From a virus: DNA of 64,000 nucleotides. A model generated the notes under the pieces. It made no database searches. It saw only the letters and a list, made by a program, of their open reading frames with translations, and was not told where the DNA came from. The stretch lies in the IMG/VR virus record IMGVR_UViG_3300035670_000059, positions 49,733-113,732 of that record; one strand, 5' to 3'. Position 1 is the stretch's first letter. The number at the start of each line of letters is the position of its first letter. This document shows positions 42,518 through 57,958 of this stretch, piece after piece. The position numbers were made by a program, and so were the translations under genes.

Positions 42518-43600
42518 ATGGCTAAAAAAAGAAACACATCACTTTCCGCGGCAGTGTCCGCGGAAATTAAATCTAACTTTGATCTAAGCAAATTTAAAAC
42601 CAAGAAAGGCTTAGATAAAAACGTTAAATTTAAAGACCAACAGTGGATTCCTTTATCTCCTGCTTTTCAAGAAGTTAGCTCTATCCCTGGAATCCCTATG
42701 GGTCATATTGTTATGCTCCGAGGACATTCAGATACAGGTAAAACAACTGCAATGATTGAAGCAGCGGTATCAGCCCAAACCAATGGTATTTTACCAGTAT
42801 TCATCATTACAGAAATGAAATGGAACTGGGACCATGCAGTGCAAATGGGATTAGACATTAATATTACTCGAGATCCAGAAACAAATGAAGTTATTGACTA
42901 TGAAGGTAATTTTATTTATGTTGATCGAGAAACATTAAATTCCATTGAAGATGTTGCCGCATTTATCATGGATTTGTTAGATGAGCAGAAAAAAGGTAAT
43001 CTACCGTATGATCTGTTGTTTTTGTGGGACAGTATTGGTTCTATTCCTTGTGATCTATCAATTCGTTCTAACAAAAATAATAACGAATGGAATGCAGGTG
43101 CTATGTCAACTCAATTTGGCAATAACGTAAACCAAAAGATTGTAATGTCTCGTAAAGAATCATCACCTTACACTAACACACTTGTGGTAGTAAATAAGGT
43201 ATGGACTTTAAAACCCGAATCACCAATGGGTCAGCCCAAACTGATGAATAAGGGTGGGTATGCAATGTGGTACGATGCAACATTTGTAATTACATTTGGA
43301 AATGTTATGTCAGCCGGTACTAACAAAATCAAAGCCATTAAAAATGGTAAGGAAGTAGAGTTTGCTAAACGTACAAATCTTCAAATCGATAAAAACCACG
43401 TTAATGGTATTACTACCAGAGGTAAGATTATCATGACACCACATGGTTTCATTATGGATGATGAAAAAGCTATCAAAGAATATAAAAATATGTACGCCGA
43501 AGAATGGGCTCGTATTTTAGGTGGTGGCGATTTCTCTATAATTGAAGAAAGCGAAGAAGCAACAATTACTGTATCTCAGTTCGCACACGAACCCGAATAA
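42518..43600 (+). CDS. recA: RecA/UvsX-like recombinase
   Basis: GIPMGHI, Walker A GHSDTGKT, FLWDSIGS, KGG..WY, IDKNH. Confidence 0.85.
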   Translation: MAKKRNTSLSAAVSAEIKSNFDLSKFKTKKGLDKNVKFKDQQWIPLSPAFQEVSSIPGIPMGHIVMLRGHSDTGKTTAMIEAAVSAQTNGILPVFIITEMKWNWDHAVQMGLDINITRDPETNEVIDYEGNFIYVDRETLNSIEDVAAFIMDLLDEQKKGNLPYDLLFLWDSIGSIPCDLSIRSNKNNNEWNAGAMSTQFGNNVNQKIVMSRKESSPYTNTLVVVNKVWTLKPESPMGQPKLMNKGGYAMWYDATFVITFGNVMSAGTNKIKAIKNGKEVEFAKRTNLQIDKNHVNGITTRGKIIMTPHGFIMDDEKAIKEYKNMYAEEWARILGGGDFSIIEESEEATITVSQFAHEPE

Positions 43601-43601
43601 C

Positions 43602-44645
43602 ATGAAACACAAAGAACTATTTAAACTTCTTGATGATATCAAGGAGGAGGGGAATGAATCCTTACCTAAAAGACACGATAGAGTTTTATTGATAGATGGA
43701 TTAAATCTATTCTTTAGAAACTTTGCAATGTTAAACATGGTAAACCCCGATGGGATTCACGTTGGCGGATTAGGTGGGTTCCTCCGTTCACTAGGTTCTT
43801 TAGTTAAACAAATTAATCCCACCGCTGTTTATGTTGTATTCGATGGGGCAGGGTCTTCTAGCAATAGAAAGAACCTTGTCCCCGAGTACAAATCTGAACG
43901 ACACACTCAAAGGGTAACTAACTGGGAAATATTTGATAATCTGGATGACGAACACGATTCTAAAATTGATCAAATTGTACGTTTAATCCAGTATTTAAAG
44001 CAATTACCTGTTAAAACCCTAGCCATTGATAAGGTAGAAGCAGATGATATAATTGCTGTGTTATCTATGGATTTGGTTAAAAAATACAATTCCACAGTAT
44101 TCATAGTTTCCTCAGACAAGGATTTTATTCAACTAGTAAATGATAAAGTTGTAGTATATCGTCCAATGGAAAAGGAATATTACAGCCCTAAAACAGTAGT
44201 AGAAAAATTTGATGTACTAGCTGAAAATTTTATTCTTTATAAAACACTACTTGGGGATGCTTCCGATAAAGTGCAAGGAGTTAAAGGATTGGGTGATAAA
44301 GGTATATTTAAAAAATTCCCTGAGCTAAAAACTCAACCACTTACTTTAGATGATATATTTGAAATCTCGGCTAGGAAATTTAAAGACCATGTAGTATATT
44401 CAAGAATATTACAAGATCAAAGACGATTAGAGACCAATTATAAGATTATGGATTTGTCAAAACCAATGGTAGATGAACGAGACATAGCTTATATTAACAA
44501 TATGGTTGAATCTGATCTACCTGAACTTAATTCTAAGAACTTTACTATAATGTACGAGGAAGATAAGTTGGGTGGTATGATTAAAAACGTAGATTATTGG
44601 TTGAAGGATAATTTCTTACATTTTAAAGGTTACAAAAATAAATGA
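43602..44645 (+). CDS. 5'-3' exonuclease/flap endonuclease (T4 RNase H-like)
   Basis: LIDGLNLFFR, VFDG, YKSER, EADDII, SSDKDF, LGDASD..GVKGLG; ATG 43602 follows recA stop. Confidence 0.92.
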   Translation: MKHKELFKLLDDIKEEGNESLPKRHDRVLLIDGLNLFFRNFAMLNMVNPDGIHVGGLGGFLRSLGSLVKQINPTAVYVVFDGAGSSSNRKNLVPEYKSERHTQRVTNWEIFDNLDDEHDSKIDQIVRLIQYLKQLPVKTLAIDKVEADDIIAVLSMDLVKKYNSTVFIVSSDKDFIQLVNDKVVVYRPMEKEYYSPKTVVEKFDVLAENFILYKTLLGDASDKVQGVKGLGDKGIFKKFPELKTQPLTLDDIFEISARKFKDHVVYSRILQDQRRLETNYKIMDLSKPMVDERDIAYINNMVESDLPELNSKNFTIMYEEDKLGGMIKNVDYWLKDNFLHFKGYKNK

Positions 44646-48746: not shown

Positions 48747-48776
48747 TCCCCACCTTCGGGTGGGGAGTTATTTTTT
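48747..48776 (+). terminator. Terminator with cUUCGg tetraloop
   Basis: TCCCCACC-TTCG-GGTGGGGA-GTTATTTTTT. Confidence 0.8.
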
Positions 48777-48789
48777 ACTAAAAATTATT

Positions 48790-49404
48790 ATGGATACTAC
48801 TATAAAAATTTATTATCTTCATAAAGGAGATAATATTCCATTTTATATTGGAGAAACTTCCCAACCCCTTAAAGGGAGATTAAATAACCATAAGAGAAAG
48901 TTAGGAAAAGAAATTCAAATTGAATTAATCGAAGAAGTTAAAAATTGGAGATTTTGGGAAAAATATTGGATAAGCCAATTTAAAGTTTGGGGGTTTAATC
49001 TAATTAATAAAAATGAAGGAGGTGGGGGTGTTGATAAAGGTACTCCTAAGCATACCCTTGAATCCAAAAACAAAATTAGCCATTCCAGAATTGGGATTAA
49101 ATATAGTGAAGAATCAAAACAAAAAATAAGTAAAGCACTACTAGGTAAAAAACAATCTGCTCAAACTTGTGAATTAAAAAGAATTAAAAGACTAGGACTA
49201 AAACATTCAGAAATAAGCAAATATAATATTTCCCAAAATCTATGTAAACCCATTTCTCAATACTCTAAAAGTGGAGATTTTATAAAAACATGGACTAGTA
49301 CTAAACTAGCAGGTGAAACCCTTAACATTTACCCTTCGGATATAAGCAAATGTCTAAAAAACAAAGGTAAATCTGCAGGTGGATATATCTGGAAGTATAA
49401 TTAA
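48790..49404 (+). CDS. GIY-YIG homing endonuclease with NUMOD3/NUMOD1-like DNA-binding repeats
   Basis: KIYYL..FYIGET..R..H..E..N; HT.ESK.KIS repeats; KSAGGYIWKY. Confidence 0.85.
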   Translation: MDTTIKIYYLHKGDNIPFYIGETSQPLKGRLNNHKRKLGKEIQIELIEEVKNWRFWEKYWISQFKVWGFNLINKNEGGGGVDKGTPKHTLESKNKISHSRIGIKYSEESKQKISKALLGKKQSAQTCELKRIKRLGLKHSEISKYNISQNLCKPISQYSKSGDFIKTWTSTKLAGETLNIYPSDISKCLKNKGKSAGGYIWKYN

Positions 49405-49429: not shown

Positions 49430-49457
49430 AGAGGGGCGTAATTTGCCCCTCTTTTTT
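49430..49457 (+). terminator. Intrinsic terminator
   Basis: AGAGGGGC-GTAATTT-GCCCCTCT plus T run. Confidence 0.85.
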
Positions 49458-49546
49458 ATATTTATGAGCAAATAACACGTTTTTTCCCTCCCCTAGTTTT
49501 TCTTATTGTTACATAATGGTTGTTTTAACTTTAAACCTAAGTTAAA

Positions 49547-50020
49547 ATGAAATTATTATATTTGTTTTTTGCTTTATTTTTAAGCATGAACCTTTATGGT
49601 CAAGAAACTATACGAATTGAGGGAGTAGAAAATAAAATTATACTTGGTCCTTTAGCTAACAACCGAGATTTAGCTTTTGGGGTTAAAAACATACTAGAAG
49701 AAACAATCCAAGATAAAGGATGGGATCTAGATGAAGCATCTTCTCGTAGTATTAAAGTAGAAATAGTATATTTTGATGTATTAAAAAATAATGTACAGTT
49801 AGGTGCATTTGGTAAAAATTTAAGCATAACTGTAGTTATAGCTAAAGCTTATTTAATTGAAAATGGTAAAATAATAAAAACAACTGAGGCAAAAGGTCAA
49901 GCCAAAGATATCTCTACTGCAACTTTAATCATAGATCAGGGAGGTCAGTTTTCACAAGCAGGAGTTTCAACAGCACTTAAAAAGGTTTGTGAACAACTTA
50001 TCGATAACTTACTTCTATGA
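49547..50020 (+). CDS. Exported protein, CsgG/TolB-N-like alpha/beta fold
   Basis: Sec signal; C-term F.QAGVSTALKKVCE parallels FNQSSIGTSTKKALE of the 53517 ORF. Confidence 0.55.
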   Translation: MKLLYLFFALFLSMNLYGQETIRIEGVENKIILGPLANNRDLAFGVKNILEETIQDKGWDLDEASSRSIKVEIVYFDVLKNNVQLGAFGKNLSITVVIAKAYLIENGKIIKTTEAKGQAKDISTATLIIDQGGQFSQAGVSTALKKVCEQLIDNLLL

Positions 50021-51585
50021 AAAAATTAATATTTCTTTTATTATTATTACCAACACTTTCTTTTGGTCAAATTATTGTTAACCAAGAAGTAGTTGAGGCT
50101 CCACCATATCAAGTAGGAGATACTATTACAATTCGATACACATTACAAAACTTAACAGGCCAACCAGATTTTAGATATTTTTGGTTAAGATTGCAATATT
50201 CCAATCAACATTTACAACTAGTACCTAACTCAACTGTCTTTGTTAATGCTTCTACAAGACAAACCTATTTTTATCAGTGGGTGGGATATAGATTTGTTCA
50301 AAACCCTAATATAGGGGTAGGAGAATTAAACCGACAATTAAATGAAGGTGGATACCAGTATGTAGGTGATCAAAACTGGAATATTGTTCAACTTAATGTA
50401 CAAACCCCAACAGATTTTCAAGATGGAGAATGGGTAAGACAAAAGTTTATTATAAAAGACCAATTAACTTTTAATAGTATCCATAAATTGGATATGGCAG
50501 ATGCCCGAAACTCAGCTAACCAACCTAAATATCCTATTGGATCTCAAGTATTACAGTTAAGTTTAAATAACGTATCTGGTGCTTCTTCTGCAGTAACATT
50601 TAGAGTAGCATTTCCTGCAGGATACGATATTACTAGACACAATGTTCAAATAGTAAATGTAGATAGCAATAATGCTCCTAATTTTAATTCCATTGTAACA
50701 TCTGTTCCATTGGATGGAGCAGGTCAAGCACTAATAACAACATTACAAACTGGAAAAAATTACTATGCTTTAATTACTCCTGCTACTCAACAATCTTTTA
50801 TGAATGATATCGTAACAGTAGCAGATGCTTACAAAGCATTTTTACAAATATCAGATAAAGGTCTAAACTTAGATCAAAACTATTTTACTACACCTATAGA
50901 ATATAAAGTAGGTAACGTAACATTAGGTGATAATACATTTGATCTAGTAGATTCCTATAATCTGTTTGCGTATGTAATGGGTATAAATGTATCTCAAACC
51001 TCTACTATACCAACTTCTACTTCTACTAATATAAGATTCTATTCTGGGAAAATTGATACATTTAATCAAGGAACATTTAATGGTCTTGTAAACATTACAG
51101 GTCCATCCCATAGATTTGATTTTGGATATGCGTGGGCGGGTGATTTAGATTTCTCCCACTCTACACCTAAAACGATTACCAGCATAGCTAATAGATCAAA
51201 CCGAATAGAAACAACTGATAAGCAAGCTAATACTACAATTACAACTAAGCTAGTAGATACTAAAGTAGTTGTAGAAATAAAGCTAGAAGAAACAAATTTA
51301 GCAGGAGCACAATATAAAATTAAATATGATGTTAACAAATTAGAGTTAGAAGAAGTAGTATTTGATGCTGGAAGAGATATAACAAATTTCTCTACCCCAA
51401 GAGATAATGCTATAGTATTTGGTTCTATTGACAATATTGGTACTGCTAAAGTAAAACCAGGCATGCCATATAAACTTATATTTAAAACAAAATCTACAAT
51501 ATCTAATACAACAGGTTTAGTATTTATTGAATTTGCCGAAGCGGTTGCGCAAAATGGTGATAAAATAATTCTAAACGTAAAATAA
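50017..51585 (+). CDS. Exported protein with cohesin-like and dockerin-like domains
   Basis: Sec signal; VGDTITI..LQYSN.HL and AGAQY.I.YD.NKL cohesin-like strands; VTVADAY..GNV..FDLVDSY dockerin-like repeats. Confidence 0.55.
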   Translation: MKKLIFLLLLLPTLSFGQIIVNQEVVEAPPYQVGDTITIRYTLQNLTGQPDFRYFWLRLQYSNQHLQLVPNSTVFVNASTRQTYFYQWVGYRFVQNPNIGVGELNRQLNEGGYQYVGDQNWNIVQLNVQTPTDFQDGEWVRQKFIIKDQLTFNSIHKLDMADARNSANQPKYPIGSQVLQLSLNNVSGASSAVTFRVAFPAGYDITRHNVQIVNVDSNNAPNFNSIVTSVPLDGAGQALITTLQTGKNYYALITPATQQSFMNDIVTVADAYKAFLQISDKGLNLDQNYFTTPIEYKVGNVTLGDNTFDLVDSYNLFAYVMGINVSQTSTIPTSTSTNIRFYSGKIDTFNQGTFNGLVNITGPSHRFDFGYAWAGDLDFSHSTPKTITSIANRSNRIETTDKQANTTITTKLVDTKVVVEIKLEETNLAGAQYKIKYDVNKLELEEVVFDAGRDITNFSTPRDNAIVFGSIDNIGTAKVKPGMPYKLIFKTKSTISNTTGLVFIEFAEAVAQNGDKIILNVK

Positions 51586-51587
51586 AA

Positions 51588-51956
51588 ATGAAATCATTAA
51601 AATATTTAAGCATTGCCTCCATTTTATTACTAGGTGGGTGTTTCCAAGAGGATGTATACGAGCCTGAATTACCTGCTAGTAATTTAGAAATAAAAGAGCA
51701 AGTAGGTATAAAACTAGAATCAGTATTTGCTACTGAAGAGGTAGCAATGAATATAAAAACAGAAACTTCTGGTACTTATACTTTAAAAATACACCATATA
51801 AGTGGCAGAGTTGTATCTAAAGAAGAAATAAAAGTACAGGCTGGAAATAATATATTAAAATTGTATACAGGGGCTTTACCTAAAGAACCTTATACTATTG
51901 CTTTATATAATTCCCGTAATGCTAGGTTGGCGGAAACTATTGTAAACTTATTTTAA
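51588..51956 (+). CDS. Lipoprotein with T9SS C-terminal sorting domain-like region
   Basis: Lipobox LLLGGC; YTLKIHHISGRVV..GNN..LP..PY.I.L pattern. Confidence 0.6.
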   Translation: MKSLKYLSIASILLLGGCFQEDVYEPELPASNLEIKEQVGIKLESVFATEEVAMNIKTETSGTYTLKIHHISGRVVSKEEIKVQAGNNILKLYTGALPKEPYTIALYNSRNARLAETIVNLF

Positions 51957-51967
51957 CTTAAACAGCT

Positions 51968-52288
51968 ATGAGCGAAGAACAAGAAGTTGGATTTTTTGGT
52001 CAATTAAAAAACCAAATTATTACAGGAGCAGGAGTTATTTTAACTACTGTTGGAACTATTTTTATAGACGAAATCAAGTCTATAGTAGGAATTGAGGATG
52101 AAACTGAGCAAGTACAAGGTACTCAACAAAACAACCAACAACAACAAAATGTTGTAATCAACATCCCAGAACAAAAAGCAGCAGAAACTAAAACTGTGAT
52201 TGTTAAAGAGGCAGCCCCCGCTGCAAAACCTACACCACCTAAGAAGACTGAAACAGAAAAACGTAAAGAAGAGGGGCTAGACTGGTAA
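51968..52288 (+). CDS. Single-TM protein with Q/P-rich tail
   Basis: IITGAGVILTTVGTIFI; QQNNQQQQ; PAAKPTPP. Confidence 0.6.
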   Translation: MSEEQEVGFFGQLKNQIITGAGVILTTVGTIFIDEIKSIVGIEDETEQVQGTQQNNQQQQNVVINIPEQKAAETKTVIVKEAAPAAKPTPPKKTETEKRKEEGLDW

Positions 52289-52611
52289 TGGAAAACAACA
52301 CACAACAAGCTACAGGGTTTAAGCAATTGTTAAACTCTATGATGCAAAGAAGATGGTTAATGACATTAATCGTCTTGATTACTTTTATGTTTATAACATT
52401 AGGTATAATGATTTCTATTCACGTTGATACTGCTGTAGGACAGGAATGGAAAGAGTTATTATTATTGTTATTAGGTGCATTTATCGGTTCTTATGGTAAA
52501 ATCATTGATTACTGGTTTTCTGATACAGATAAAGATAAAATGTTAGTCCAGAAAATGGACGAAGAAGATGGAGTTTCTTTATCAAATACAAACTCAACAG
52601 AAGAAAAATGA
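52288..52611 (+). CDS. Two-TM membrane protein
   Basis: Two hydrophobic segments; IIDYWFS; acidic tail. Confidence 0.65.
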   Translation: MENNTQQATGFKQLLNSMMQRRWLMTLIVLITFMFITLGIMISIHVDTAVGQEWKELLLLLLGAFIGSYGKIIDYWFSDTDKDKMLVQKMDEEDGVSLSNTNSTEEK

Positions 52612-52706
52612 CAAACCGCGAAACAAAAGACAAAAACAGAAAAGCAATGGCTAAAGCCACTATTAAGGCTCAACAGAAGTCAGGAATGTATAAAAAGAAA
52701 ATGTAA
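52608..52706 (+). CDS. 32-aa basic peptide (not in ORF track)
   Basis: MTNRETKDKNRKAMAKATIKAQQKSGMYKKKM*; ATGA and TAATG overlaps with both neighbours. Confidence 0.65.
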   Translation: MTNRETKDKNRKAMAKATIKAQQKSGMYKKKM

Positions 52707-53317
52707 TGAGACTTACCTTACTCTTATTTATCCTTTCAGTACAGTCTCTCTTGGCACAAACCAAGAGGGATTCTGTTTTAATAGAAACACCCGTTTTTAC
52801 AGTAATGTATTCTGAGACCTTAGAGCAACCTCTTTGGATCAAATACCGGTCTACAAACCGTCCTACAAATGTAAATAGAGGTCACATGAATTTCTATAAA
52901 GAAAAAAATATCCTCACCTCTGATGATGAAGATTACAAGGCAAATGTATATGATAAAGGACATGGAGCACCAGCTGCAACATTTTCTGATAGTGAAGAAA
53001 ATCTTAAGCAAACATTTTCGTATTTAAACTCTATAATGCAAGACCAATACCTTAACAGAGGTGTATGGAAAATGTTAGAAGAGCAAGAGCGAAAGTGGGA
53101 CGATGAAGAACCATTGACTGTAATCATCAAAACTTATTTTGATGAACCTGTAAAAAGAGTAGCAACAGGAGCAGCAATCCCTTCACACATGGAAAAACAT
53201 ATTCATTTTGAAAAATCAAAAAAGTGGAGATGCTATGTATTTTTAAATGAAAAACCTAAATATATGCTACCACAATTAGAAACAATATGCAAACCAAATC
53301 AACATAAACTAAAATAA
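52706..53317 (+). CDS. Exported DNA/RNA non-specific endonuclease (NucA/EndoG family)
   Basis: Signal peptide; YDKGHGAPAA, TF.Y.N..Q...LNRG.W..LE. Confidence 0.88.
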   Translation: MRLTLLLFILSVQSLLAQTKRDSVLIETPVFTVMYSETLEQPLWIKYRSTNRPTNVNRGHMNFYKEKNILTSDDEDYKANVYDKGHGAPAATFSDSEENLKQTFSYLNSIMQDQYLNRGVWKMLEEQERKWDDEEPLTVIIKTYFDEPVKRVATGAAIPSHMEKHIHFEKSKKWRCYVFLNEKPKYMLPQLETICKPNQHKLK

Positions 53318-53319
53318 TT

Positions 53320-53523
53320 ATGAAAAATCTACTAAGTTCTTTATTATTAATTTCTATCATATTCATTATCCCAAGTATTGGATTATATACTGCCATAAAT
53401 GACATTTATAGCCCATTTGGATATCTTGCTAGTTTTGCGGTAAGTGTTACCTTATGGTTTAGCTTACGTAAAGTATTTGGATGGAAAATTGATCAAAAGA
53501 CAAAACAATTTCACTCATGGTAA
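53320..53523 (+). CDS. Small two-TM membrane protein
   Basis: Two hydrophobic helices, basic C-tail. Confidence 0.6.
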   Translation: MKNLLSSLLLISIIFIIPSIGLYTAINDIYSPFGYLASFAVSVTLWFSLRKVFGWKIDQKTKQFHSW

Positions 53524-54236
53524 AATATCTTTTAAGTATTCCATTCTTTTTCCTATCCACTACTTTATTTGCTCAAGTAATAGGAAAAACCTCAACTGAA
53601 AGCTATCAGGCAGAGTTTGAAAAATCAGCCTCTGTTTACGATATACCGGAATACAATGGCAAACCTGTACCTGTTGCTTTATTAACAATTGGTATAAGCG
53701 ATGAAGTACTAGCTCAATACCCAGAATTAGGTGACTATAGAGTAGGACTAGGTCTAGCTAACATTGTAGTAGCATTTATGGACGAAACTTTTAGATTTGA
53801 ATTTGTAGAAACAAAGGATGAAATAAAGGATCGTATGATTGCCCAAATGAAAGCCTCAGATAAAGGTATTTCTGCAAATAAAATAGAGGTAAAAGGAAAT
53901 ATAGTACTAGCCAAATATTTAGGCTATGTTGAAGTATACGATTTCTCTATCTCAGAAGACGAAACTATAAACCTAAAAGATGGTGTAAAAAATACACTAG
54001 TAACTAGATTAGGTTTACAGTTAAAACTAGTAGACGCAGAAACTGGATTGTACATGACTGGTTCAGGATTAGGCATGGCAACTACAACAAGAGAATTAAC
54101 TCTATTAAGTGATCAAAATTTAGAGGAAGTAGCATTTAACCAATCTTCTATTGGTACTTCTACTAAAAAAGCTCTAGAAACTGCAGTAGCAAAAGTTGTA
54201 AAAAGAATGATGCAAAAGGGTGTGTTTGATCACTAA
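53517..54236 (+). CDS. CsgG/HfaB-family envelope protein
   Basis: Signal peptide; GLANI..TFRFEFVE, RLGLQLKLVDAETG, KKALETAV pattern of the CsgG fold. Confidence 0.7.
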   Translation: MVKYLLSIPFFFLSTTLFAQVIGKTSTESYQAEFEKSASVYDIPEYNGKPVPVALLTIGISDEVLAQYPELGDYRVGLGLANIVVAFMDETFRFEFVETKDEIKDRMIAQMKASDKGISANKIEVKGNIVLAKYLGYVEVYDFSISEDETINLKDGVKNTLVTRLGLQLKLVDAETGLYMTGSGLGMATTTRELTLLSDQNLEEVAFNQSSIGTSTKKALETAVAKVVKRMMQKGVFDH

Positions 54237-54240
54237 CCTA

Positions 54241-55536
54241 ATGAAATATTTTCTTTTTATATTACTACTATGGGGGAATGTGGCTTTAGCCCAATCCCCC
54301 ATTATTACCCAAACATATACCGATAGATGTACGGGACAAACATTTACATTCTCTGTACCATCAAACGGGCAAACTGTAGTAGTATTTTACAATAAATCAC
54401 GTGTATTTACCGCAAATGACTTTACTAACGGTGTATTACGTGCATGGTTAGAAGAAACATATGCTTGGTGGAGAAACTTAAGTCCATGCTCTACTAATCA
54501 AGCTACTGCAACTGCTGCGCAACAAACTGCTCAACAAGCAGCCTCCACTGCTACTTCAGTAGCTACCAATATTCCAACTCCCCCTCCTCCTCCACCACCA
54601 CCACCTTCAAACCCACCACCTTCAAGTGGGGGATCAACATCTTCAAGTAGTTCATCTTCATCTAGTTCCAGCTCCTCTAGCTCTTCTAGTTCTTCCTCTC
54701 AAGAAAAAAGTGGGGGCGAAGCAGAAAAGGGTGGTGGTAGTACAGAAGAAAAATCAGGTGGATCAGAAGAGAGTAGTAGCTCTGAAGAAAGCAGCAGTGA
54801 ATCTGAATCCTCAGACAGTGAAGAATCTTCAGAAAGTTCTTCAGAAGAAGAAAAAGAGGAAAAAAAAGAAGAAAAGAAAAAATCCACTACCCCACCTGTA
54901 GTAGTTGCAAACGTAGCATCAATGCAAGGTTTAGATGGTAAATGGGCTACTGCTCTATCTTTTGGTATGAGTAAATCTTCTTTATTAGGAGATAAATCCT
55001 ATGGGGTAAATAGTATGGTGTGGTCTAACATGAAACAGTTTTTAGTAGCAGGAAACTATTCAAAAACCCACGTAATAAATGGAGAAATAGACATGATTAG
55101 CTCTACTGCTATAAGCGCAGCTAAAATGTATTCAACATATCTGGTTTCAATAGGTCACGGAAAAGTATTTCCAGGTAGAGACGGGTCTGTATTTGGGTTT
55201 AACTTTGCAAGTAATGTAATGTCTGTAGAGCTAGCTCCTTTACAACGTGATTTATCTGGGTCTTTTAATACTGTATTTTTCTATACTAAATCCTATAACT
55301 TTACTCGGTTATCTTTAGCACCATTAGCTGCTTTAGCTTCAAATCTAGTTACATATAGTTTTACTACCAAAACAATGAATATGCCTCATTCACATATATT
55401 ATTAGCAGGTAATAACTTTAACTATACTATAACACAAAGATTTGTGGCTAATTTAGGTATAATGGCTACTTCATCTTTATCTGGAGAATTTCCAACAACA
55501 TATGCTGTAACTGTTGGCTCTAGATTTCAATTTTGA
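54241..55536 (+). CDS. Outer-membrane beta-barrel protein with Pro/Ser/Glu linker
   Basis: Signal MKYFLFILLLWG..AQ; poly-P/poly-S/E linker; amphipathic strands ending VTVGSRFQF (terminal Phe). Confidence 0.65.
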   Translation: MKYFLFILLLWGNVALAQSPIITQTYTDRCTGQTFTFSVPSNGQTVVVFYNKSRVFTANDFTNGVLRAWLEETYAWWRNLSPCSTNQATATAAQQTAQQAASTATSVATNIPTPPPPPPPPPSNPPPSSGGSTSSSSSSSSSSSSSSSSSSSSQEKSGGEAEKGGGSTEEKSGGSEESSSSEESSSESESSDSEESSESSSEEEKEEKKEEKKKSTTPPVVVANVASMQGLDGKWATALSFGMSKSSLLGDKSYGVNSMVWSNMKQFLVAGNYSKTHVINGEIDMISSTAISAAKMYSTYLVSIGHGKVFPGRDGSVFGFNFASNVMSVELAPLQRDLSGSFNTVFFYTKSYNFTRLSLAPLAALASNLVTYSFTTKTMNMPHSHILLAGNNFNYTITQRFVANLGIMATSSLSGEFPTTYAVTVGSRFQF

Positions 55537-55581
55537 TATGTATAATAGATAAAATAATGTTTCACACAAATATGTTATGCC

Positions 55582-55851
55582 ATGTTAAACTATTTAAAAA
55601 ATAAATGGATGGCTTTCAAGGACATTTTTAAAGACAACAATTCTTACAACGAAAAAAACATCGTAGGATTTGGATCATTTGCGGTAATGGCAGTATTTGC
55701 GGCCGCAGACATTGTAACTGGTATATTAGGCATGCCGTTAGAAATTACCGATACTATTTTCAACTCATTTGTAATCATTACATTGGGTTCTTTTGGTATT
55801 GATGGTGTAACTAAAATCTTTAGTAAAGACAAAAAAGAAGAAGAACTATGA
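55582..55851 (+). CDS. Holin-like two-TM protein
   Basis: Two TM segments, charged C-tail, overlaps endolysin start. Confidence 0.6.
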   Translation: MLNYLKNKWMAFKDIFKDNNSYNEKNIVGFGSFAVMAVFAAADIVTGILGMPLEITDTIFNSFVIITLGSFGIDGVTKIFSKDKKEEEL

Positions 55852-56462
55852 GCTTAAAATCATTGCAAGCTAAAATTGGAGTTGGTGCAGATGGTGCATT
55901 TGGACCTGGTACTTTAAAAGCAGCTATGGCCTATTACAAAATGACTCCTGAAAGAGCTGCCCACTTTTTTGCACAAACCGCTCACGAAAGTGGAAACTTT
56001 AAGGCATTTGCTGAGAATTTGAATTATGGTGCTGCAGGTTTAACAGGAATATTTAAAAAATATTTCCCAACCACAGAAAAAGCATTACTTTATGAGCGCA
56101 AGCCAGAAAAAATTGCTAACTTAGTTTACGCTTCTCGTATGGGAAATGGAGATGAGGCTTCAGGTGATGGATTTAAATTCAGAGGTAGAGGTGCTCTGCA
56201 ATTGACTGGTAAAGACAACTATAAAGTATTCTCTGAATATTTGAAAAAACCAGAAATTATGACTAATCCTGATTTAGTAGCAACTGAGTATGCTTTTGAA
56301 TCTGCAATTTTCTTCTTTGATAGAAATAAGCTATGGGACATCTGCGATAAAGGTGTAAACAAAGATACAATCTTAGCTCTCACTAAGAGAATCAATGGCG
56401 GAACTCACGGATTAGCTGATAGAGAAGAAAAAACACTTAAGTATTACGGCTATCTAAAATAA
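55848..56462 (+). CDS. Endolysin, glycoside hydrolase family 19 with short PG-binding N-term
   Basis: DGAFGPGT; AHFFAQTAHESG; FRGRGALQLTGKDNY; TKRINGG..GL.DR. Confidence 0.92.
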   Translation: MSLKSLQAKIGVGADGAFGPGTLKAAMAYYKMTPERAAHFFAQTAHESGNFKAFAENLNYGAAGLTGIFKKYFPTTEKALLYERKPEKIANLVYASRMGNGDEASGDGFKFRGRGALQLTGKDNYKVFSEYLKKPEIMTNPDLVATEYAFESAIFFFDRNKLWDICDKGVNKDTILALTKRINGGTHGLADREEKTLKYYGYLK

Positions 56463-56471
56463 TATTTTAGA

Positions 56472-56900
56472 ATGAAATCCAGCTTAAGTTTAATCATTTC
56501 TTCTATCAGTATGACTGCAGCTTTTGTATGTTCATATTTTATGGAAATCACAATGCAAAACGCCGAACAATATTTAGCTATTGCAGCTTTAATATTTGCT
56601 GATGGTTTTTTTGGAGTAATTGCGGGAGTGAAAAGAGAGGGATTCAAAACCTATAAAGCAATTAAAATATTAAAAAATCTATTATTTTGGATTATATTTT
56701 TGACTGTAATATTAGGAATTGAAGCTAATTTTGATGGAACATTTTGGTTAAGTGAAACCATAATTACTCCACTCATAATATTCCAGCTAATAAGTGCTCT
56801 AAAGAACGCATCAATGGCAGGATTTATTAAGATAGATGAATTAAACAAAATACTGGATAAAATAGATAAACATAAAGGGGACAGGTCCTCAGAGAAATAA
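56472..56900 (+). CDS. Phage holin (holin 4 family-like)
   Basis: Multiple TM segments; D.F.G.IA..K; S.LKN...G. Confidence 0.7.
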   Translation: MKSSLSLIISSISMTAAFVCSYFMEITMQNAEQYLAIAALIFADGFFGVIAGVKREGFKTYKAIKILKNLLFWIIFLTVILGIEANFDGTFWLSETIITPLIIFQLISALKNASMAGFIKIDELNKILDKIDKHKGDRSSEK

Positions 56901-56938: not shown

Positions 56939-57958
56939 ATGTTAAAAAATCTAAAACAAAGTATATTCCCATTTATTATAGCATTTTCTGCGCTATCTGT
57001 CAGTGCTTCTGCTGCTTTCTATTCTATAAGTGGGTTAAGCAAACTATTTGCGGGAGCCTCATTTGAGGTAATAGTTATGGCTAGTTCTTTAGAAATAGCT
57101 AAACTAGTAATTGCCTCCTTACTATATCAATATTGGAATACTATAAATAAAGTATTACGTACTTATCTAATGGTAGCTACAGTAATATTAATTCTCATTA
57201 CCTCTATGGGCATTTATGGTTTCTTGTCTGCTGCATACCAAGAAACAGCCAATAAGGCAGGCAATATGGATGCTCAAGTATCTTTGGTAGAAGTCAAGCG
57301 AGACAACATTAAAGAGCAACTAACCGTATACACGCTCGAAAAAGAAAATATCACCAAAGCCATTGCCGATCTACGGGCAGGACTAGCTAACAACATTATT
57401 CAATATAAAGATAAAGATGGTAATATAATCACCTCTACCTCTACAGCTACACGCAACGCTTTAGAAAAACAATTAGATCAAGCAGTAACTAGACAAACGG
57501 ATGTTAATCTTAAAGTTGATGAACTAAATACTCAGCTTTTTGAATACGAAACCCAAATTGTAGAAATTAAAACTGGAAGTGATCTGGCTGGGGAACTAGG
57601 ACCATTAAAATTCATTTCAGGTCTTACGGGTATACCAATGGATAAAATAATAAACGTATTACTTTTAGTCATTATATTTGTGTTTGATCCATTAGCAATT
57701 TCTTTAGTAATAGCTGCTAACTTTGCATTTGCCCAAATAAATCCCGTAAAAGAAGAACAGCAATATGATCCTCTAGATTTGAACAAAGATGGAATTGTAG
57801 ATGAAAGTGAAAGAACAATAACTAAACAAAAAATAGAAGAATTAGAATATAACATTGAAACTAAATCTTTAGGTGGTTGGTGGTTAAAAAAGGTAAAAGA
57901 TCAAATTGATTCTTTAAAATCTAAAATTAAAGAAGAAGACGAAACAAAAACATACTAG
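56939..57958 (+). CDS. Membrane protein with long coiled coil
   Basis: Three N-term TM segments, coiled coil, C-term TM FVFDPLAI, EF-hand-like DLNKDGIVD. Confidence 0.7.
   Translation: MLKNLKQSIFPFIIAFSALSVSASAAFYSISGLSKLFAGASFEVIVMASSLEIAKLVIASLLYQYWNTINKVLRTYLMVATVILILITSMGIYGFLSAAYQETANKAGNMDAQVSLVEVKRDNIKEQLTVYTLEKENITKAIADLRAGLANNIIQYKDKDGNIITSTSTATRNALEKQLDQAVTRQTDVNLKVDELNTQLFEYETQIVEIKTGSDLAGELGPLKFISGLTGIPMDKIINVLLLVIIFVFDPLAISLVIAANFAFAQINPVKEEQQYDPLDLNKDGIVDESERTITKQKIEELEYNIETKSLGGWWLKKVKDQIDSLKSKIKEEDETKTY

What the first reader, a model, noticed from the sequence alone, without database searches (positions are those of the whole stretch)
49458..55536. Phage-encoded cell-envelope operon: CsgG-like proteins, cohesin/dockerin-like protein, T9SS-CTD-like lipoprotein, exported nuclease and beta-barrel
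Seen: ten tightly coupled ORFs bounded upstream by a terminator (49430) plus promoter motif (49458) and downstream by the next promoter motif (55536). Nine carry a signal peptide, lipobox or TM helix. Known: CsgG forms the curli secretion pore; cohesin-dockerin pairs build surface scaffolds; T9SS CTDs route Bacteroidota proteins to the surface; NucA-family enzymes degrade nucleic acids non-specifically. No curlin (CsgA/B) repeats are present, so this is not a curli operon. Inference: the phage builds its own outer-membrane/periplasmic complex in the infected cell. Possible roles are superinfection exclusion with a periplasmic nuclease, receptor or T9SS occlusion, or nucleotide/phosphate scavenging (PhoH is also encoded).
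Basis: partly seen in the sequence, partly recalled or inferred. Interest (0 to 1): 0.88.

Follow-up and report, generated by a model that had tools for sequence, protein, structure and literature searches.

The report
Phage operon of exported envelope proteins
A large uncultured phage of Flavobacterium-type bacteria carries, just ahead of its lysis genes, a conserved operon made only of exported proteins (two CsgG-fold proteins, an autotransporter-like outer-membrane barrel, a cohesin/dockerin protein, a lipoprotein resembling a T9SS sorting tag, and a nuclease); it probably rebuilds the infected cell's envelope, but its purpose is untested.

Summary
Ten tightly packed + strand ORFs (49547-55536) lie between a terminator and two variants of the phage's recurrent promoter-like motif. 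Eight are flagged as exported or membrane proteins by a crude screen, against 14 of 115 ORFs elsewhere (p 1e-5).

Fold and profile tests support the domain calls:
- o8 has a CsgG fold (Z 11.2) and is predicted to self-associate head to tail.
- o1 is a short paralogue of o8.
- o9 is an N-domain, an acidic stalk and a 12-stranded NalP/FapF-like barrel (Z 22.9).
- o2 carries a cohesin domain and a weak dockerin-like stretch.
- o3 is a lipoprotein with a T9SS-CTD-like domain.
- o6 is a NucA/EndoG-type nuclease.

The core o8-o9-o1 was found in 64 of 81 related loci, including cultured Flavobacterium phage immuto; most of the rest are cut contigs. The nuclease and the cohesin/lectin genes vary.

A curli-type pore is not shown. 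This o8 has no lipobox, its hairpin tips are acidic, and related domains occur fused to kinases and caspases. Distant cellular relatives sit in a similar three-gene cassette.

The function is inferred: late envelope and surface remodelling. This scan has already noted the same module in at least 111 other genomes. The published analogues are the csgG/csgF clusters of pelagimyophages and phage Melnitz.

The parts
49430..49452 (+). Intrinsic-terminator-like hairpin closing the nrdA / homing-endonuclease unit
   Evidence: 9-bp stem with 6 G-C pairs, followed by a T run
49458..49468 (+). Promoter-like motif ATATTTATGAG, a variant of the phage's recurrent ATATTTATAAC
   Evidence: The consensus is enriched, 22 copies against 6.4 expected, and lies ahead of tail-fibre genes. 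This copy keeps the ATATTTAT core.
49547..50020 (+). o1: 157-aa exported protein, a short paralogue of o8 (LptE/PelC/YajG-like alpha/beta domain)
   Evidence: Leader ending ...LYGQ. Pfam Lipoprotein_16 25.9 bits; 7 of 15 homologues match it. hhalign against the o8 family: probability 93.9%, E 1.6e-7; o1 lacks a stretch of about 45 aa present in o8. Present in almost all related loci.
50017..51585 (+). o2: 522-aa exported protein with a C-terminal cohesin domain and a weak dockerin-like stretch
   Evidence: Pfam Cohesin 25.1 bits at residues 415-520; 14 of 20 homologues match. The PDB profile search hits scaffoldin cohesins (E 6e-4) and a type I dockerin at profile positions 267-328 (E 0.008). 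Atlas neighbours carry Cohesin, Dockerin_1 and Por_Secre_tail.
51588..51956 (+). o3: 122-aa lipoprotein made of a T9SS C-terminal-sorting-domain-like beta-sandwich
   Evidence: The lipobox Cys is invariant in 17 homologues and is followed by acidic residues. Por_Secre_tail is matched by 12 of 17 homologues, best E 1.3e-7; the window copy scores 17.8 bits, below the cut-off. It aligns weakly to the CTD of immuto's cohesin-CTD protein (hhalign E 2.2e-4, probability 45%).
51968..52288 (+). o4: 106-aa protein with one N-terminal hydrophobic segment and a Q/N/P/K-rich tail
   Evidence: Sequence. Homologues in 26 related ORF sets. No family hit.
52288..52611 (+). o5: 107-aa small membrane protein with a charged C-terminus (holin-like shape). 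In distant relatives it sits between o8 and o9.
   Evidence: One TM segment flagged at 24-42 and a second hydrophobic stretch by eye. 46-56% identical copies lie directly after o8 in the distant clade.
52706..53317 (+). o6: secreted NucA/EndoG-type non-specific nuclease, a movable add-on
   Evidence: Endonuclease_NS 3.5e-19 and phrog_14168 5.9e-19. Aligns to EXOG and Serratia nuclease with the GH and N..Q..N.G.W..E motifs kept. Preceded by a 94-nt gap. Its position differs among relatives.
53320..53523 (+). o7: 67-aa hydrophobic protein, found only in the closest relatives
53517..54236 (+). o8: 239-aa exported CsgG-fold protein, the most conserved gene of the module
   Evidence: AF2 model pLDDT 69.8. 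Foldseek top hit CsgG 4uv2, E 9e-8. VIA Z 11.2, rmsd 7.0 A, 183 residues aligned to CsgG 7brm_A. BFVD top hit a phage 'CsgG', E 6e-8. Atlas nearest named family CsgG/HfaB, 0.94. 70% mean column identity across clades. Four-copy prediction scores 0.78 against 0.00 for the best control.
54241..55536 (+). o9: 431-aa exported protein. It has an N-domain with two invariant Cys, an acidic Ser/Glu-rich disordered stalk and a 12-stranded C-terminal barrel ending ...RFQF.
   Evidence: AF2 barrel pLDDT 84-90. VIA Z 22.9, rmsd 2.5 A, 228 residues aligned to the NalP translocator; FapF Z 19.7; KdgM Z 20.9. Foldseek FapF E 6.9e-7. N-domain and barrel are conserved while stalk length varies.
55536..55546 (+). 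Second motif variant, ATATGTATAAT, ahead of the lysis cassette
55582..55851 (+). o10: 89-aa holin-like membrane protein (neighbour, first gene of the lysis cassette)
   Evidence: One TM segment flagged (27-45) and a charged tail. Follows o9 and precedes the endolysin in relatives.
55848..56462 (+). o11: GH19-type endolysin (neighbour)
   Evidence: phrog_181 endolysin 1.2e-60; Pfam Glyco_hydro_19 27.9 bits.
56472..56900 (+). o12: multi-pass holin-family protein (neighbour)
   Evidence: phrog_199 holin 2e-4; Phage_holin_4_1 21.3 bits, just under the cut-off.

Best explanation
This is a phage-encoded cell-envelope remodelling operon of a large immuto-like myophage of Flavobacteriia. It is preceded by a variant of the motif that also precedes the tail-fibre genes, and it lies directly ahead of the holin/endolysin cassette. 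All its products leave the cytoplasm.

Shown:
- o8 has the CsgG fold and is predicted to self-associate head to tail.
- o1 is a shortened paralogue of o8.
- o9 is a small N-domain with two invariant Cys, an acidic disordered stalk, and a 12-stranded barrel that ends in Phe and looks like an autotransporter or FapF barrel.
- These three genes, often with the small membrane protein o5, recur together in nearly every related phage locus.
- The rest of the operon varies: cohesin/dockerin, lectins, a CTD-like lipoprotein, the nuclease.

Inferred:
- Host BAM inserts the o9 barrel into the outer membrane.
- o8, perhaps with o1, forms a periplasmic ring associated with the barrel, in the manner of PelC-PelB or LptE-LptD rather than as a curli pore.
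- The variable arm supplies carbohydrate- and protein-binding proteins that end up at the cell surface, partly through the host T9SS.
- The net effect, late in infection, is a re-dressed outer membrane and surface. The most likely uses are to occupy or mask surface structures and to hold on to polysaccharide or neighbouring cells.
- The secreted nuclease is an optional extra that degrades nucleic acid outside the cytoplasm.
For: - Export features cluster here: 8 of 10 ORFs flagged against 14 of 115 elsewhere, p 1e-5.
- o8 fold: Foldseek CsgG E 9e-8; VIA Z 11.2 with 183 residues aligned, against 120-140 for most LptE and PelC chains at Z 7-9; Cj1090c scores Z 10.7 over 133 residues.
- o8 self-association: complex prediction with four copies scored 0.78, best of 3 controls 0.00. 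That mark was reached by 20 of 30 proteins solved as pairs of one chain and by 1 of 23 solved as single chains. The runs agree in at least 97% of contacts and the partner's pLDDT is at least 81. Two different faces touch, that is, head to tail. CsgG rings are solved, so the pass may partly reflect likeness.
- o1 and o8 are homologous: hhalign probability 93.9%.
- o9: NalP Z 22.9, 228 residues aligned at 2.5 A; terminal ...RFQF; invariant C30 and C83.
- Co-conservation: o8, o9 and o1 together in 64 of 81 loci, including cultured phage immuto. Nine of the other 17 are cut contigs. Six more have o1 (HMM), and five of those have an o9 match by tblastn.
- Variable arm: Lectin_C, PA14/GLEYA and Laminin_G_3 proteins in relatives; Cohesin plus Por_Secre_tail in one immuto protein; the o3 family matches Por_Secre_tail.
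- Distant cellular relatives in Desulfuromonadota and Desulfobacterota MAGs have the same layout: two CsgG-like paralogues, one a lipoprotein that passes Pfam CsgG at 30.1 bits, followed by an outer-membrane protein with N-domain, linker and barrel.
- Motif variants at both ends of the operon.
Against: - No protein, localisation or expression data exist for any of these genes.
- No o8-o9, o1-o9 or o2-o3 contact was tested; the single complex job went to o8 alone.
- The o8 model is of middling confidence: pLDDT 69.8, and three of five models are poor.
- The cellular outer-membrane protein shows no detectable sequence homology to o9 (hhalign probability 3%), so the parallel rests on layout only.
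- 'Late' timing is inferred from a motif shared with tail-fibre genes, and the copy at 49458 departs from the consensus in its last three bases.
- The purpose (masking, adhesion) is inference from domain types.
Confidence: 0.5

Rival explanations
1. Lysis accessory. The module works with the adjacent holin and endolysin. It either weakens or breaches the outer membrane, or it sets lysis timing, as Buchholz et al. proposed for the CsgG/CsgF genes of phage Melnitz.
For: - o9 is followed directly by a holin-like gene, an endolysin and a holin, both here and in the intermediate clade.
- In the distant clade a GH19 endolysin lies within about 3-6 kb, and the small holin-shaped o5 sits between o8 and o9.
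- The promoter motif is shared with structural genes.
- The published hypothesis for Melnitz is in PMC9004378.
Against: - The genome has its own spanin-like overlapping pair: a TM plus coiled-coil protein and a signal-peptide protein, at record positions 42961-43615.
- In relatives L013, L031 and L032 a like pair sits right after the endolysin, so outer-membrane disruption already has candidates.
- Cellular relatives of the core cassette are not next to lysis genes.
- In immuto the nearest lysin-like gene is about 6 kb away.
- Lectin and cohesin cargo has no obvious part in lysis.
Confidence: 0.2
2. A true type VIII-like or Fap-like secretion channel. o8 forms a CsgG-type oligomeric outer-membrane pore, or o9 a FapF-type gated barrel. 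The channel exports unfolded phage proteins (o2, o6, lectins), or it lets solutes into the cell.
For: - CsgG is the best structural match of o8, and it covers about 50 more residues than the pore-less relatives do.
- A head-to-tail oligomer is predicted.
- FapF is among the best matches of o9 and has the same order of parts: N-domain, linker, helix, 12-strand barrel.
- JGI names some o8 homologues CsgG.
- Candidate cargo genes lie in the same operon.
Against: - This o8 has no lipobox Cys, although some relatives do.
- The hairpin tip carries acidic E147, D148, E149 (D or E in all 20 aligned sequences), and only a short stretch alternates hydrophobic and polar residues.
- The predicted interface packs the base of the hairpin against the neighbour's helix. 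No hairpin-to-hairpin contact was reported.
- The same domain type is fused to the outer side of Ser/Thr kinases and to caspases, where no pore is expected.
- No CsgA, B, E, F or Fap partner was found.
- In immuto the cohesin protein carries a T9SS tag, so its cargo has another route out.
Confidence: 0.15
3. A nuclease-centred device. A periplasmic or secreted nuclease, with pores, serves superinfection exclusion (cutting incoming DNA) or scavenges nucleotides and phosphate from extracellular DNA.
For: - o6 has a signal peptide and intact catalytic motifs.
- Ribonucleotide reductase genes lie just upstream.
- A nuclease homologue lies within 8 kb of o8 in 23 of 81 loci.
Against: - The nuclease is absent from, or placed elsewhere in, most related loci: upstream next to nrd in immuto, about 5 kb downstream in L021-L030, and not found in many others.
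- It is set off by the only sizeable gap in the operon.
- It cannot explain why the o8-o9-o1 core is so strongly conserved.
Confidence: 0.07
4. The products are virion or assembly components, and the leaders are not export signals.
For: The motif is shared with tail-fibre genes. No proteome is available to exclude this reading.
Against: - Signal-peptide-like leaders cleaved before Gln, an invariant lipobox, and a barrel with a terminal Phe are outer-membrane features.
- Cellular homologues are lipoproteins and outer-membrane proteins.
- The block lies between nucleotide-metabolism genes and lysis genes, away from the structural genes.
Confidence: 0.03

Closest known systems
csgG/csgF ('partial curli', type VIII secretion) clusters of pelagimyophages (HTVC008M group; PMC7029224) and Methylophilales phage Melnitz (PMC9004378)
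   Same: Both are large aquatic myophages carrying a CsgG-type gene in a small operon of exported proteins, without curlin subunits and with unknown function. Uptake, 'sibling capture' and lysis control have been proposed for them.
   Different: Those phages have canonical CsgG plus CsgF, close to proteobacterial curli genes. Here o8 has no Pfam CsgG hit and there is no CsgF. The partners are a shortened paralogue, an autotransporter-like stalked barrel, cohesin/dockerin/lectin proteins and a CTD-like lipoprotein, and the hosts are Bacteroidota.
CsgG curli channel (E. coli; PDB 4uv3, 6l7a, 7brm)
   Same: The fold of the alpha/beta domain with long hairpins (Z 10-11), and a predicted head-to-tail oligomer.
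   Different: 9-13% identity. This copy has no lipid anchor, its hairpin tips are acidic, and there are no CsgE, CsgF or CsgA/B partners.
Lipoprotein-plus-barrel pairs PelC-PelB (PDB 9h80) and LptE-LptD (PDB 5ixm)
   Same: A protein of the same alpha/beta fold (Z 8-9) encoded with, and acting at, an outer-membrane barrel. PelC forms a ring without spanning the membrane.
   Different: The barrels differ. o9 has 12 strands and looks like an autotransporter. No contact between o8/o1 and o9 was tested here.
Type Va autotransporter translocators (NalP 1uyn, EspP, EstA) and the amyloid exporter FapF (5o65)
   Same: A 12-stranded barrel with a terminal aromatic residue. An N-terminal part is joined to the barrel through a linker and a helix, which the model places in the barrel. 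Z 19.7-22.9.
   Different: No Pfam autotransporter or Fap family hit. A disordered acidic stretch of 100-350 residues lies between the helix and the first strand. The 'passenger' is only about 65 residues. No Fap partners are present.
Uncharacterised cellular cassette of Desulfuromonadota/Desulfobacterota: two CsgG-like paralogues plus an outer-membrane barrel protein
   Same: The same gene order and protein types. The second paralogue is 27-36% identical to o8 and shares its motifs.
   Different: It is cellular and has no lectin or cohesin arm. Its outer-membrane protein shows no detectable sequence homology to o9. Its function is also unknown.

Membership tests
CsgG (Pfam PF03783; curli/type VIII secretion channel) | Match to the family profile above the curated cut-off | tested here: not met
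   o8 has no CsgG hit at E up to 1. One of 20 homologues reaches E 0.0012. Distant cellular relatives and fusion proteins do pass, at 30-46 bits against a cut-off of 20.8, so o8 belongs to the wider superfamily only by transitivity.
CsgG (Pfam PF03783; curli/type VIII secretion channel) | CsgG fold (alpha/beta domain with two long hairpins) | tested here: met
   Foldseek 4uv2 E 9e-8. VIA Z 11.2, rmsd 7.0 A, 183 residues aligned to 7brm_A. The model's pLDDT is 69.8.
CsgG (Pfam PF03783; curli/type VIII secretion channel) | N-terminal lipidated Cys that targets the protein to the outer membrane | tested here: not met
   The window copy's leader ends ...TLFAQ with no Cys. Several distant homologues do have an ...FSC lipobox.
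CsgG (Pfam PF03783; curli/type VIII secretion channel) | Ring oligomer | tested here: inconclusive
   Four copies scored 0.78 against 0.00 for the best control, with head-to-tail faces. This is a prediction only, ring size and closure were not tested, and the pass may reflect likeness to solved CsgG.
CsgG (Pfam PF03783; curli/type VIII secretion channel) | Amphipathic hairpins that build a membrane-spanning barrel | tested here: inconclusive
   Residues alternate over 136-145 and 163-172, but the tip carries acidic E147-D148-E149 (D/E in all 20 aligned sequences). No hairpin-to-hairpin contacts were reported.
CsgG (Pfam PF03783; curli/type VIII secretion channel) | Operon partners CsgE, CsgF and curlin CsgA/B | tested here: not met
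   No such family was hit in any of the ten ORFs.
Type Va autotransporter beta-domain | 12-stranded C-terminal barrel ending in an aromatic residue | tested here: met
   NalP Z 22.9, rmsd 2.5 A, 228 residues aligned. Barrel pLDDT 84-90. The protein ends ...RFQF.
Type Va autotransporter beta-domain | Family profile match, and a linker helix running through the barrel straight into strand 1 | tested here: inconclusive
   No Pfam autotransporter hit. The alignments to autotransporters start at model residues 63-73, so the model seems to place helix 85-110 in the barrel. That helix has pLDDT 59-77, and about 100 disordered residues separate it from strand 1.
FapF (functional-amyloid exporter) | Periplasmic N-domain, linker, plug helix and 12-strand barrel, encoded within a fap operon | tested here: inconclusive
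   The order of parts and the fold agree (Foldseek E 6.9e-7; Z 19.7). No Fap partner or family hit was found.
Cohesin (PF00963) / dockerin | Profile match to the cohesin domain; Ca-binding dockerin repeats | tested here: inconclusive
   Cohesin scores 25.1 bits against a cut-off of 24.1, and 14 of 20 homologues match. The dockerin call rests on one PDB profile hit (5m2s_B, E 0.008) and on Atlas neighbours. There is no Pfam Dockerin_1 hit.
T9SS C-terminal sorting domain (PF18962) | Profile match at the extreme C-terminus of a Sec-exported protein | tested here: inconclusive
   o3 scores 17.8 bits against a cut-off of 27. Twelve of 17 homologues match, best E 1.3e-7, and the domain is C-terminal. 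The protein is unusual in consisting of little else and in being a lipoprotein.
DNA/RNA non-specific endonuclease (PF01223; NucA/EndoG) | Profile match and catalytic His/Asn/Glu motifs | tested here: met
   69.8 bits against a cut-off of 23. The alignment to EXOG keeps ..GH.APA and N..Q....N.G.W..E.
Two-component spanin | Inner-membrane protein with a periplasmic coiled coil, plus a small outer-membrane lipoprotein, genes overlapping or adjacent in that order | tested here: not met
   o3 (lipoprotein) comes before o4 (TM protein), and the tail of o4 is low-complexity by eye rather than coiled coil. A better candidate pair lies elsewhere in the record.

The most novel reading that the evidence does not exclude
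The conserved o8-o1-o9 trio is a previously unrecognised outer-membrane machine, shared by phages of Bacteroidota and some cellular lineages. The phage uses it late in infection to plant a stalked display platform on the infected cell. Cohesin/dockerin-linked lectins and a lipid-anchored mimic of the T9SS sorting tag are attached to this platform. As a result the cell is glued to polysaccharide or to sibling cells, or its T9SS and receptors are occupied, which raises the odds that the progeny find hosts.
Probability: 0.2. Interest if true: 0.85.

Novelty: new variant of a known kind. Interest (0 to 1): 0.6.

Why it matters
- o8 alone has at least 5,994 homologous clusters (at 90% identity) in public data, and it is about as conserved as the phage's ribonucleotide reductase. 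Its job therefore matters to a very abundant group of aquatic phages of Bacteroidota.
- Phages are known to alter the host surface with single proteins such as Llp, Cor and Lom. A multi-gene, outer-membrane-directed module carrying swappable sugar-binding cargo would be a different scale of host-surface engineering.
- It could bear on particle attachment, aggregation and phage-host encounter in lakes and seas.
- Flavobacterium phage immuto and its host LMO8 carry the core genes, so the question can be tested at the bench.
- The cellular three-gene relatives are also uncharacterised, so the phage system could explain them too.

Tried and rejected
- **PDB sequence-profile searches.** The o8, o1, o9 N-domain and widened o8 families gave nothing usable. 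Only fold comparison linked o8 to CsgG.
- **PHROGs.** No informative family for nine of the ten ORFs.
- **Isolated phages.** blastn and tblastn found only the immuto phages.
- **o9 and the cellular outer-membrane protein.** Homology was tested and not found (hhalign probability 3%), so only the layout is shared.
- **The module as the phage's spanin equivalent.** Considered and downgraded after a spanin-like overlapping pair turned up elsewhere in the record, and inside the lysis cassette of relatives.
- **o3/o4 as a spanin pair.** Rejected on gene order and composition.
- **A nuclease-centred reading.** Downgraded because o6 is not co-conserved.
- **Split-tag idea.** Comparison with immuto's cohesin-CTD protein gave only weak support: E 2.2e-4 at probability 45% for o3, and E 1.9e-5 at probability 78% for the cohesin of o2.
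- **Literature.** Searches for CsgG with phage and Flavobacterium, and for immuto, found no paper on this module.

Full report
**Where the window lies.** The window is the last 64 kb of a 113.7-kb IMG/VR phage record judged about 70% complete. All sizeable ORFs are on the + strand. Tail-fibre genes lie at 12-24 kb, and ribonucleotide reductase genes at 46-48.7 kb. The only isolated relatives are the 160-kb Flavobacterium phages vB_FspM_immuto. They share nrdA/B at about 60% identity and have homologues of o6, o8 and o9 just downstream of nrd.

**Observation.**
- The ten ORFs exist as described and are tightly packed. The exception is a 94-nt gap before the nuclease gene.
- The terminator at 49430 is clear.
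- The two 'promoter motifs' are variants of an 11-mer, ATATTTATAAC. It is strongly over-represented: 22 copies with up to one mismatch, against 6.4 expected, and no shuffle reached 22. Copies precede the tail-fibre genes at 15161 and 21930.
- The operon's own copy (49458) keeps the ATATTTAT core but differs in its last three bases. The copy at 55536 has two mismatches.
- A crude hydropathy and lipobox screen of the whole record flags 8 of the 10 ORFs, against 14 of 115 others (p 1e-5).
- The flagged run continues through the holin-like gene, the holin, and a conserved multi-pass protein downstream.

**o8 and o1.**
- o8 has no Pfam hit. Its AF2 model (pLDDT 69.8) matches CsgG best in the PDB: Foldseek E 9e-8; VIA Z 11.2, rmsd 7.0 A, 183 residues aligned.
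- The pore-less proteins of the same basic fold (LptE, PelC, GNA1162) mostly align over 120-140 residues at Z 7-9; Cj1090c scores Z 10.7 over 133 residues.
- The best viral match is a phage protein named CsgG. The nearest named Atlas family is CsgG/HfaB.
- o1 passes Pfam Lipoprotein_16 narrowly. It is homologous to o8 (hhalign probability 93.9%, E 1.6e-7) and lacks a stretch of about 45 residues that o8 has.
- Four copies of o8 are predicted to bind head to tail. The score was 0.78, against 0.00 for the best of 3 controls. That mark was reached by 20 of 30 proteins solved as pairs of one chain and by 1 of 23 solved as single chains. The runs agree in at least 97% of contacts, and the partner's pLDDT is at least 81. 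CsgG rings are solved, so the pass may reflect likeness.

**Arguments against a curli-type pore.**
- This o8 has a signal-peptidase-I type leader without Cys, although some relatives have a lipobox.
- The hairpin tip carries acidic E147-D148-E149, which are D or E in all 20 aligned sequences.
- The reported contacts pack the base of the hairpin against the neighbour's helix. They are not hairpin-to-hairpin contacts.
- In the 1.8-billion-protein library the same domain type occurs after a Ser/Thr kinase and a hydrophobic segment, and also fused to caspase domains. A membrane pore is not expected in either setting.

**o9.**
- The model has three parts: a small N-domain (pLDDT about 80-87), a disordered acidic Ser/Glu-rich stretch (residues 110-213), and a confident barrel (pLDDT 84-90).
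- The barrel matches 12-stranded translocators best. NalP gives Z 22.9 at 2.5 A over 228 residues. EstA, EspP and KdgM give Z about 21. FapF gives Z 19.7.
- Alignments to autotransporters begin near residues 63-73, so the model seems to place helix 85-110 inside the barrel. That helix is only moderately confident.
- Across relatives the N-domain (invariant C30 and C83) and the barrel (ending in Phe) are conserved. The stalk varies from about 100 to 350 residues.

**Other genes.**
- o2 has a marginal but recurrent cohesin match and one weak dockerin-like match.
- o3 has an invariant lipobox Cys followed by acidic residues. From my own knowledge, this resembles the Bacteroidota lipoprotein surface-export signal; I did not test it.
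- The rest of o3 is a beta-sandwich that matches the T9SS sorting domain in 12 of 17 homologues.
- o6 is a NucA/EndoG-type nuclease with a leader and intact catalytic motifs.
- o4, o5 and o7 are small membrane proteins.
- o10-o12 form a holin-like, GH19 endolysin and holin cassette.

**Conservation.**
- o8 brought in 80 viral loci. A profile search found at least 5,994 clusters at 90% identity, some of which JGI names CsgG.
- HMM mapping shows o8, o9 and o1 together in 64 of 81 loci. Nine of the other 17 are cut contigs.
- Six further loci have an o1 match (HMM); five of these also have an o9 match by tblastn.
- In immuto and the distant clade the order is o8, then o5 (where present), then o9, then o1, contiguously. 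In the window's clade o1 sits at the front, followed by o2, o3 and o4.
- The remainder varies. Relatives carry C-type lectin, PA14/GLEYA or ConA-like proteins, and immuto has one protein with cohesin plus a T9SS sorting domain.
- The nuclease sits in different places or was not found.

**Cellular relatives.**
- A scan of 185,579 species genomes found six Bacteroidota or unclassified MAG contigs carrying the o8 gene at 47-58% identity, most with other module genes alongside.
- It also found more distant relatives (27-36% identity) in Desulfuromonadota, Desulfobacterota and others, some on megabase contigs.
- There the gene is a lipoprotein that passes Pfam CsgG. A CsgG-like paralogue precedes it, and an outer-membrane protein with N-domain, linker and barrel follows it.
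- The layout matches the phage core, but that outer-membrane protein shows no sequence homology to o9.

**Reading.**
- The evidence fits an envelope module with two arms. The fixed core lies at the outer membrane and in the periplasm. The swappable arm consists of binding proteins that reach the surface, partly through the host T9SS.
- I favour late envelope and surface remodelling (confidence 0.5).
- A lysis role is the main rival (0.2). Adjacency to the lysis genes supports it. It is weakened by a separate spanin-like pair at record positions 42961-43615, and by a like pair placed right after the endolysin in relatives.
- A true secretion pore (0.15), a nuclease-centred device (0.07) and virion parts (0.03) are less likely.

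**What is known.**
- Phage csgG/csgF clusters without curlin genes are published for pelagimyophages and for phage Melnitz, and their function is also unknown.
- I found no paper on the Bacteroidota-phage module.
- This scan has noted the same module many times: 160 findings in at least 111 genomes. Earlier follow-ups reached much the same verdict.

Noticed in passing
window, 22 sites, e.g. 5087, 9343, 10679, 21888, 24088, 24907, 27259, 30636, 59696: The 11-mer ATATTTATAAC occurs 22 times with up to one mismatch, against 6.4 expected. Ten copies are exact, all on the + strand; those I checked lie in intergenic gaps, e.g. ahead of the tail-fibre genes. It is a candidate phage (late?) promoter element.
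   Followed up: partly
outside the window: whole record positions 42961-43329 and 43202-43615 (about 6.1-6.8 kb before the window's start): An overlapping gene pair lies just upstream of what looks, from its sequence, like the large terminase gene (not tested). One protein has 122 aa with an N-terminal TM segment and a coiled coil. The other has 137 aa with a signal peptide. This is a spanin-like arrangement. In relatives L013, L031 and L032 a like pair sits right after the endolysin.
   Followed up: partly
window 48760-49404: A GIY-YIG / NUMOD3 homing-endonuclease gene lies between nrdA and the envelope operon. Only 2 of the 81 related loci have a match.
   Followed up: partly
window 56939-57958: A 339-aa multi-pass membrane protein with no family hit follows the holin. 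Homologues occupy the same place in L017, L031 and L032. It may belong to the lysis cassette or to the envelope module.
   Followed up: partly
L091-L103 (for example L095:7348-9757 and L100:7361-9887): A cellular three-gene cassette in Desulfuromonadota/Desulfobacterota MAGs: two CsgG-like paralogues followed by an outer-membrane protein with N-domain, linker and barrel. In L100 a caspase-domain protein and an FGE-sulfatase protein lie just upstream. Function unknown.
   Followed up: partly
proteins P0203, P0208, P0221 (caspase fusions) and P0211, P0235, P0249 (P0211 and P0235 carry a Ser/Thr kinase domain; P0249 has no kinase hit): The o8-type domain occurs fused to a C-terminal caspase domain in lipoproteins. 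It also occurs as the C-terminal domain of Ser/Thr kinases, after a hydrophobic segment and a Pro-rich linker; I read this as the extracytoplasmic side (topology not tested).
   Followed up: partly
L007:1837-5702: A close relative carries two tandem o2 paralogues. The second has 748 aa and a weak C-type lectin match, which shows how the variable arm is exchanged.
   Followed up: no
window 54560-54900 (within o9) and its homologues: The stalk of o9 is a Ser/Thr/Asp/Glu-rich tract ending in a Lys run. Its length varies from about 100 to 350 residues between relatives, while both flanking domains are conserved.
   Followed up: partly
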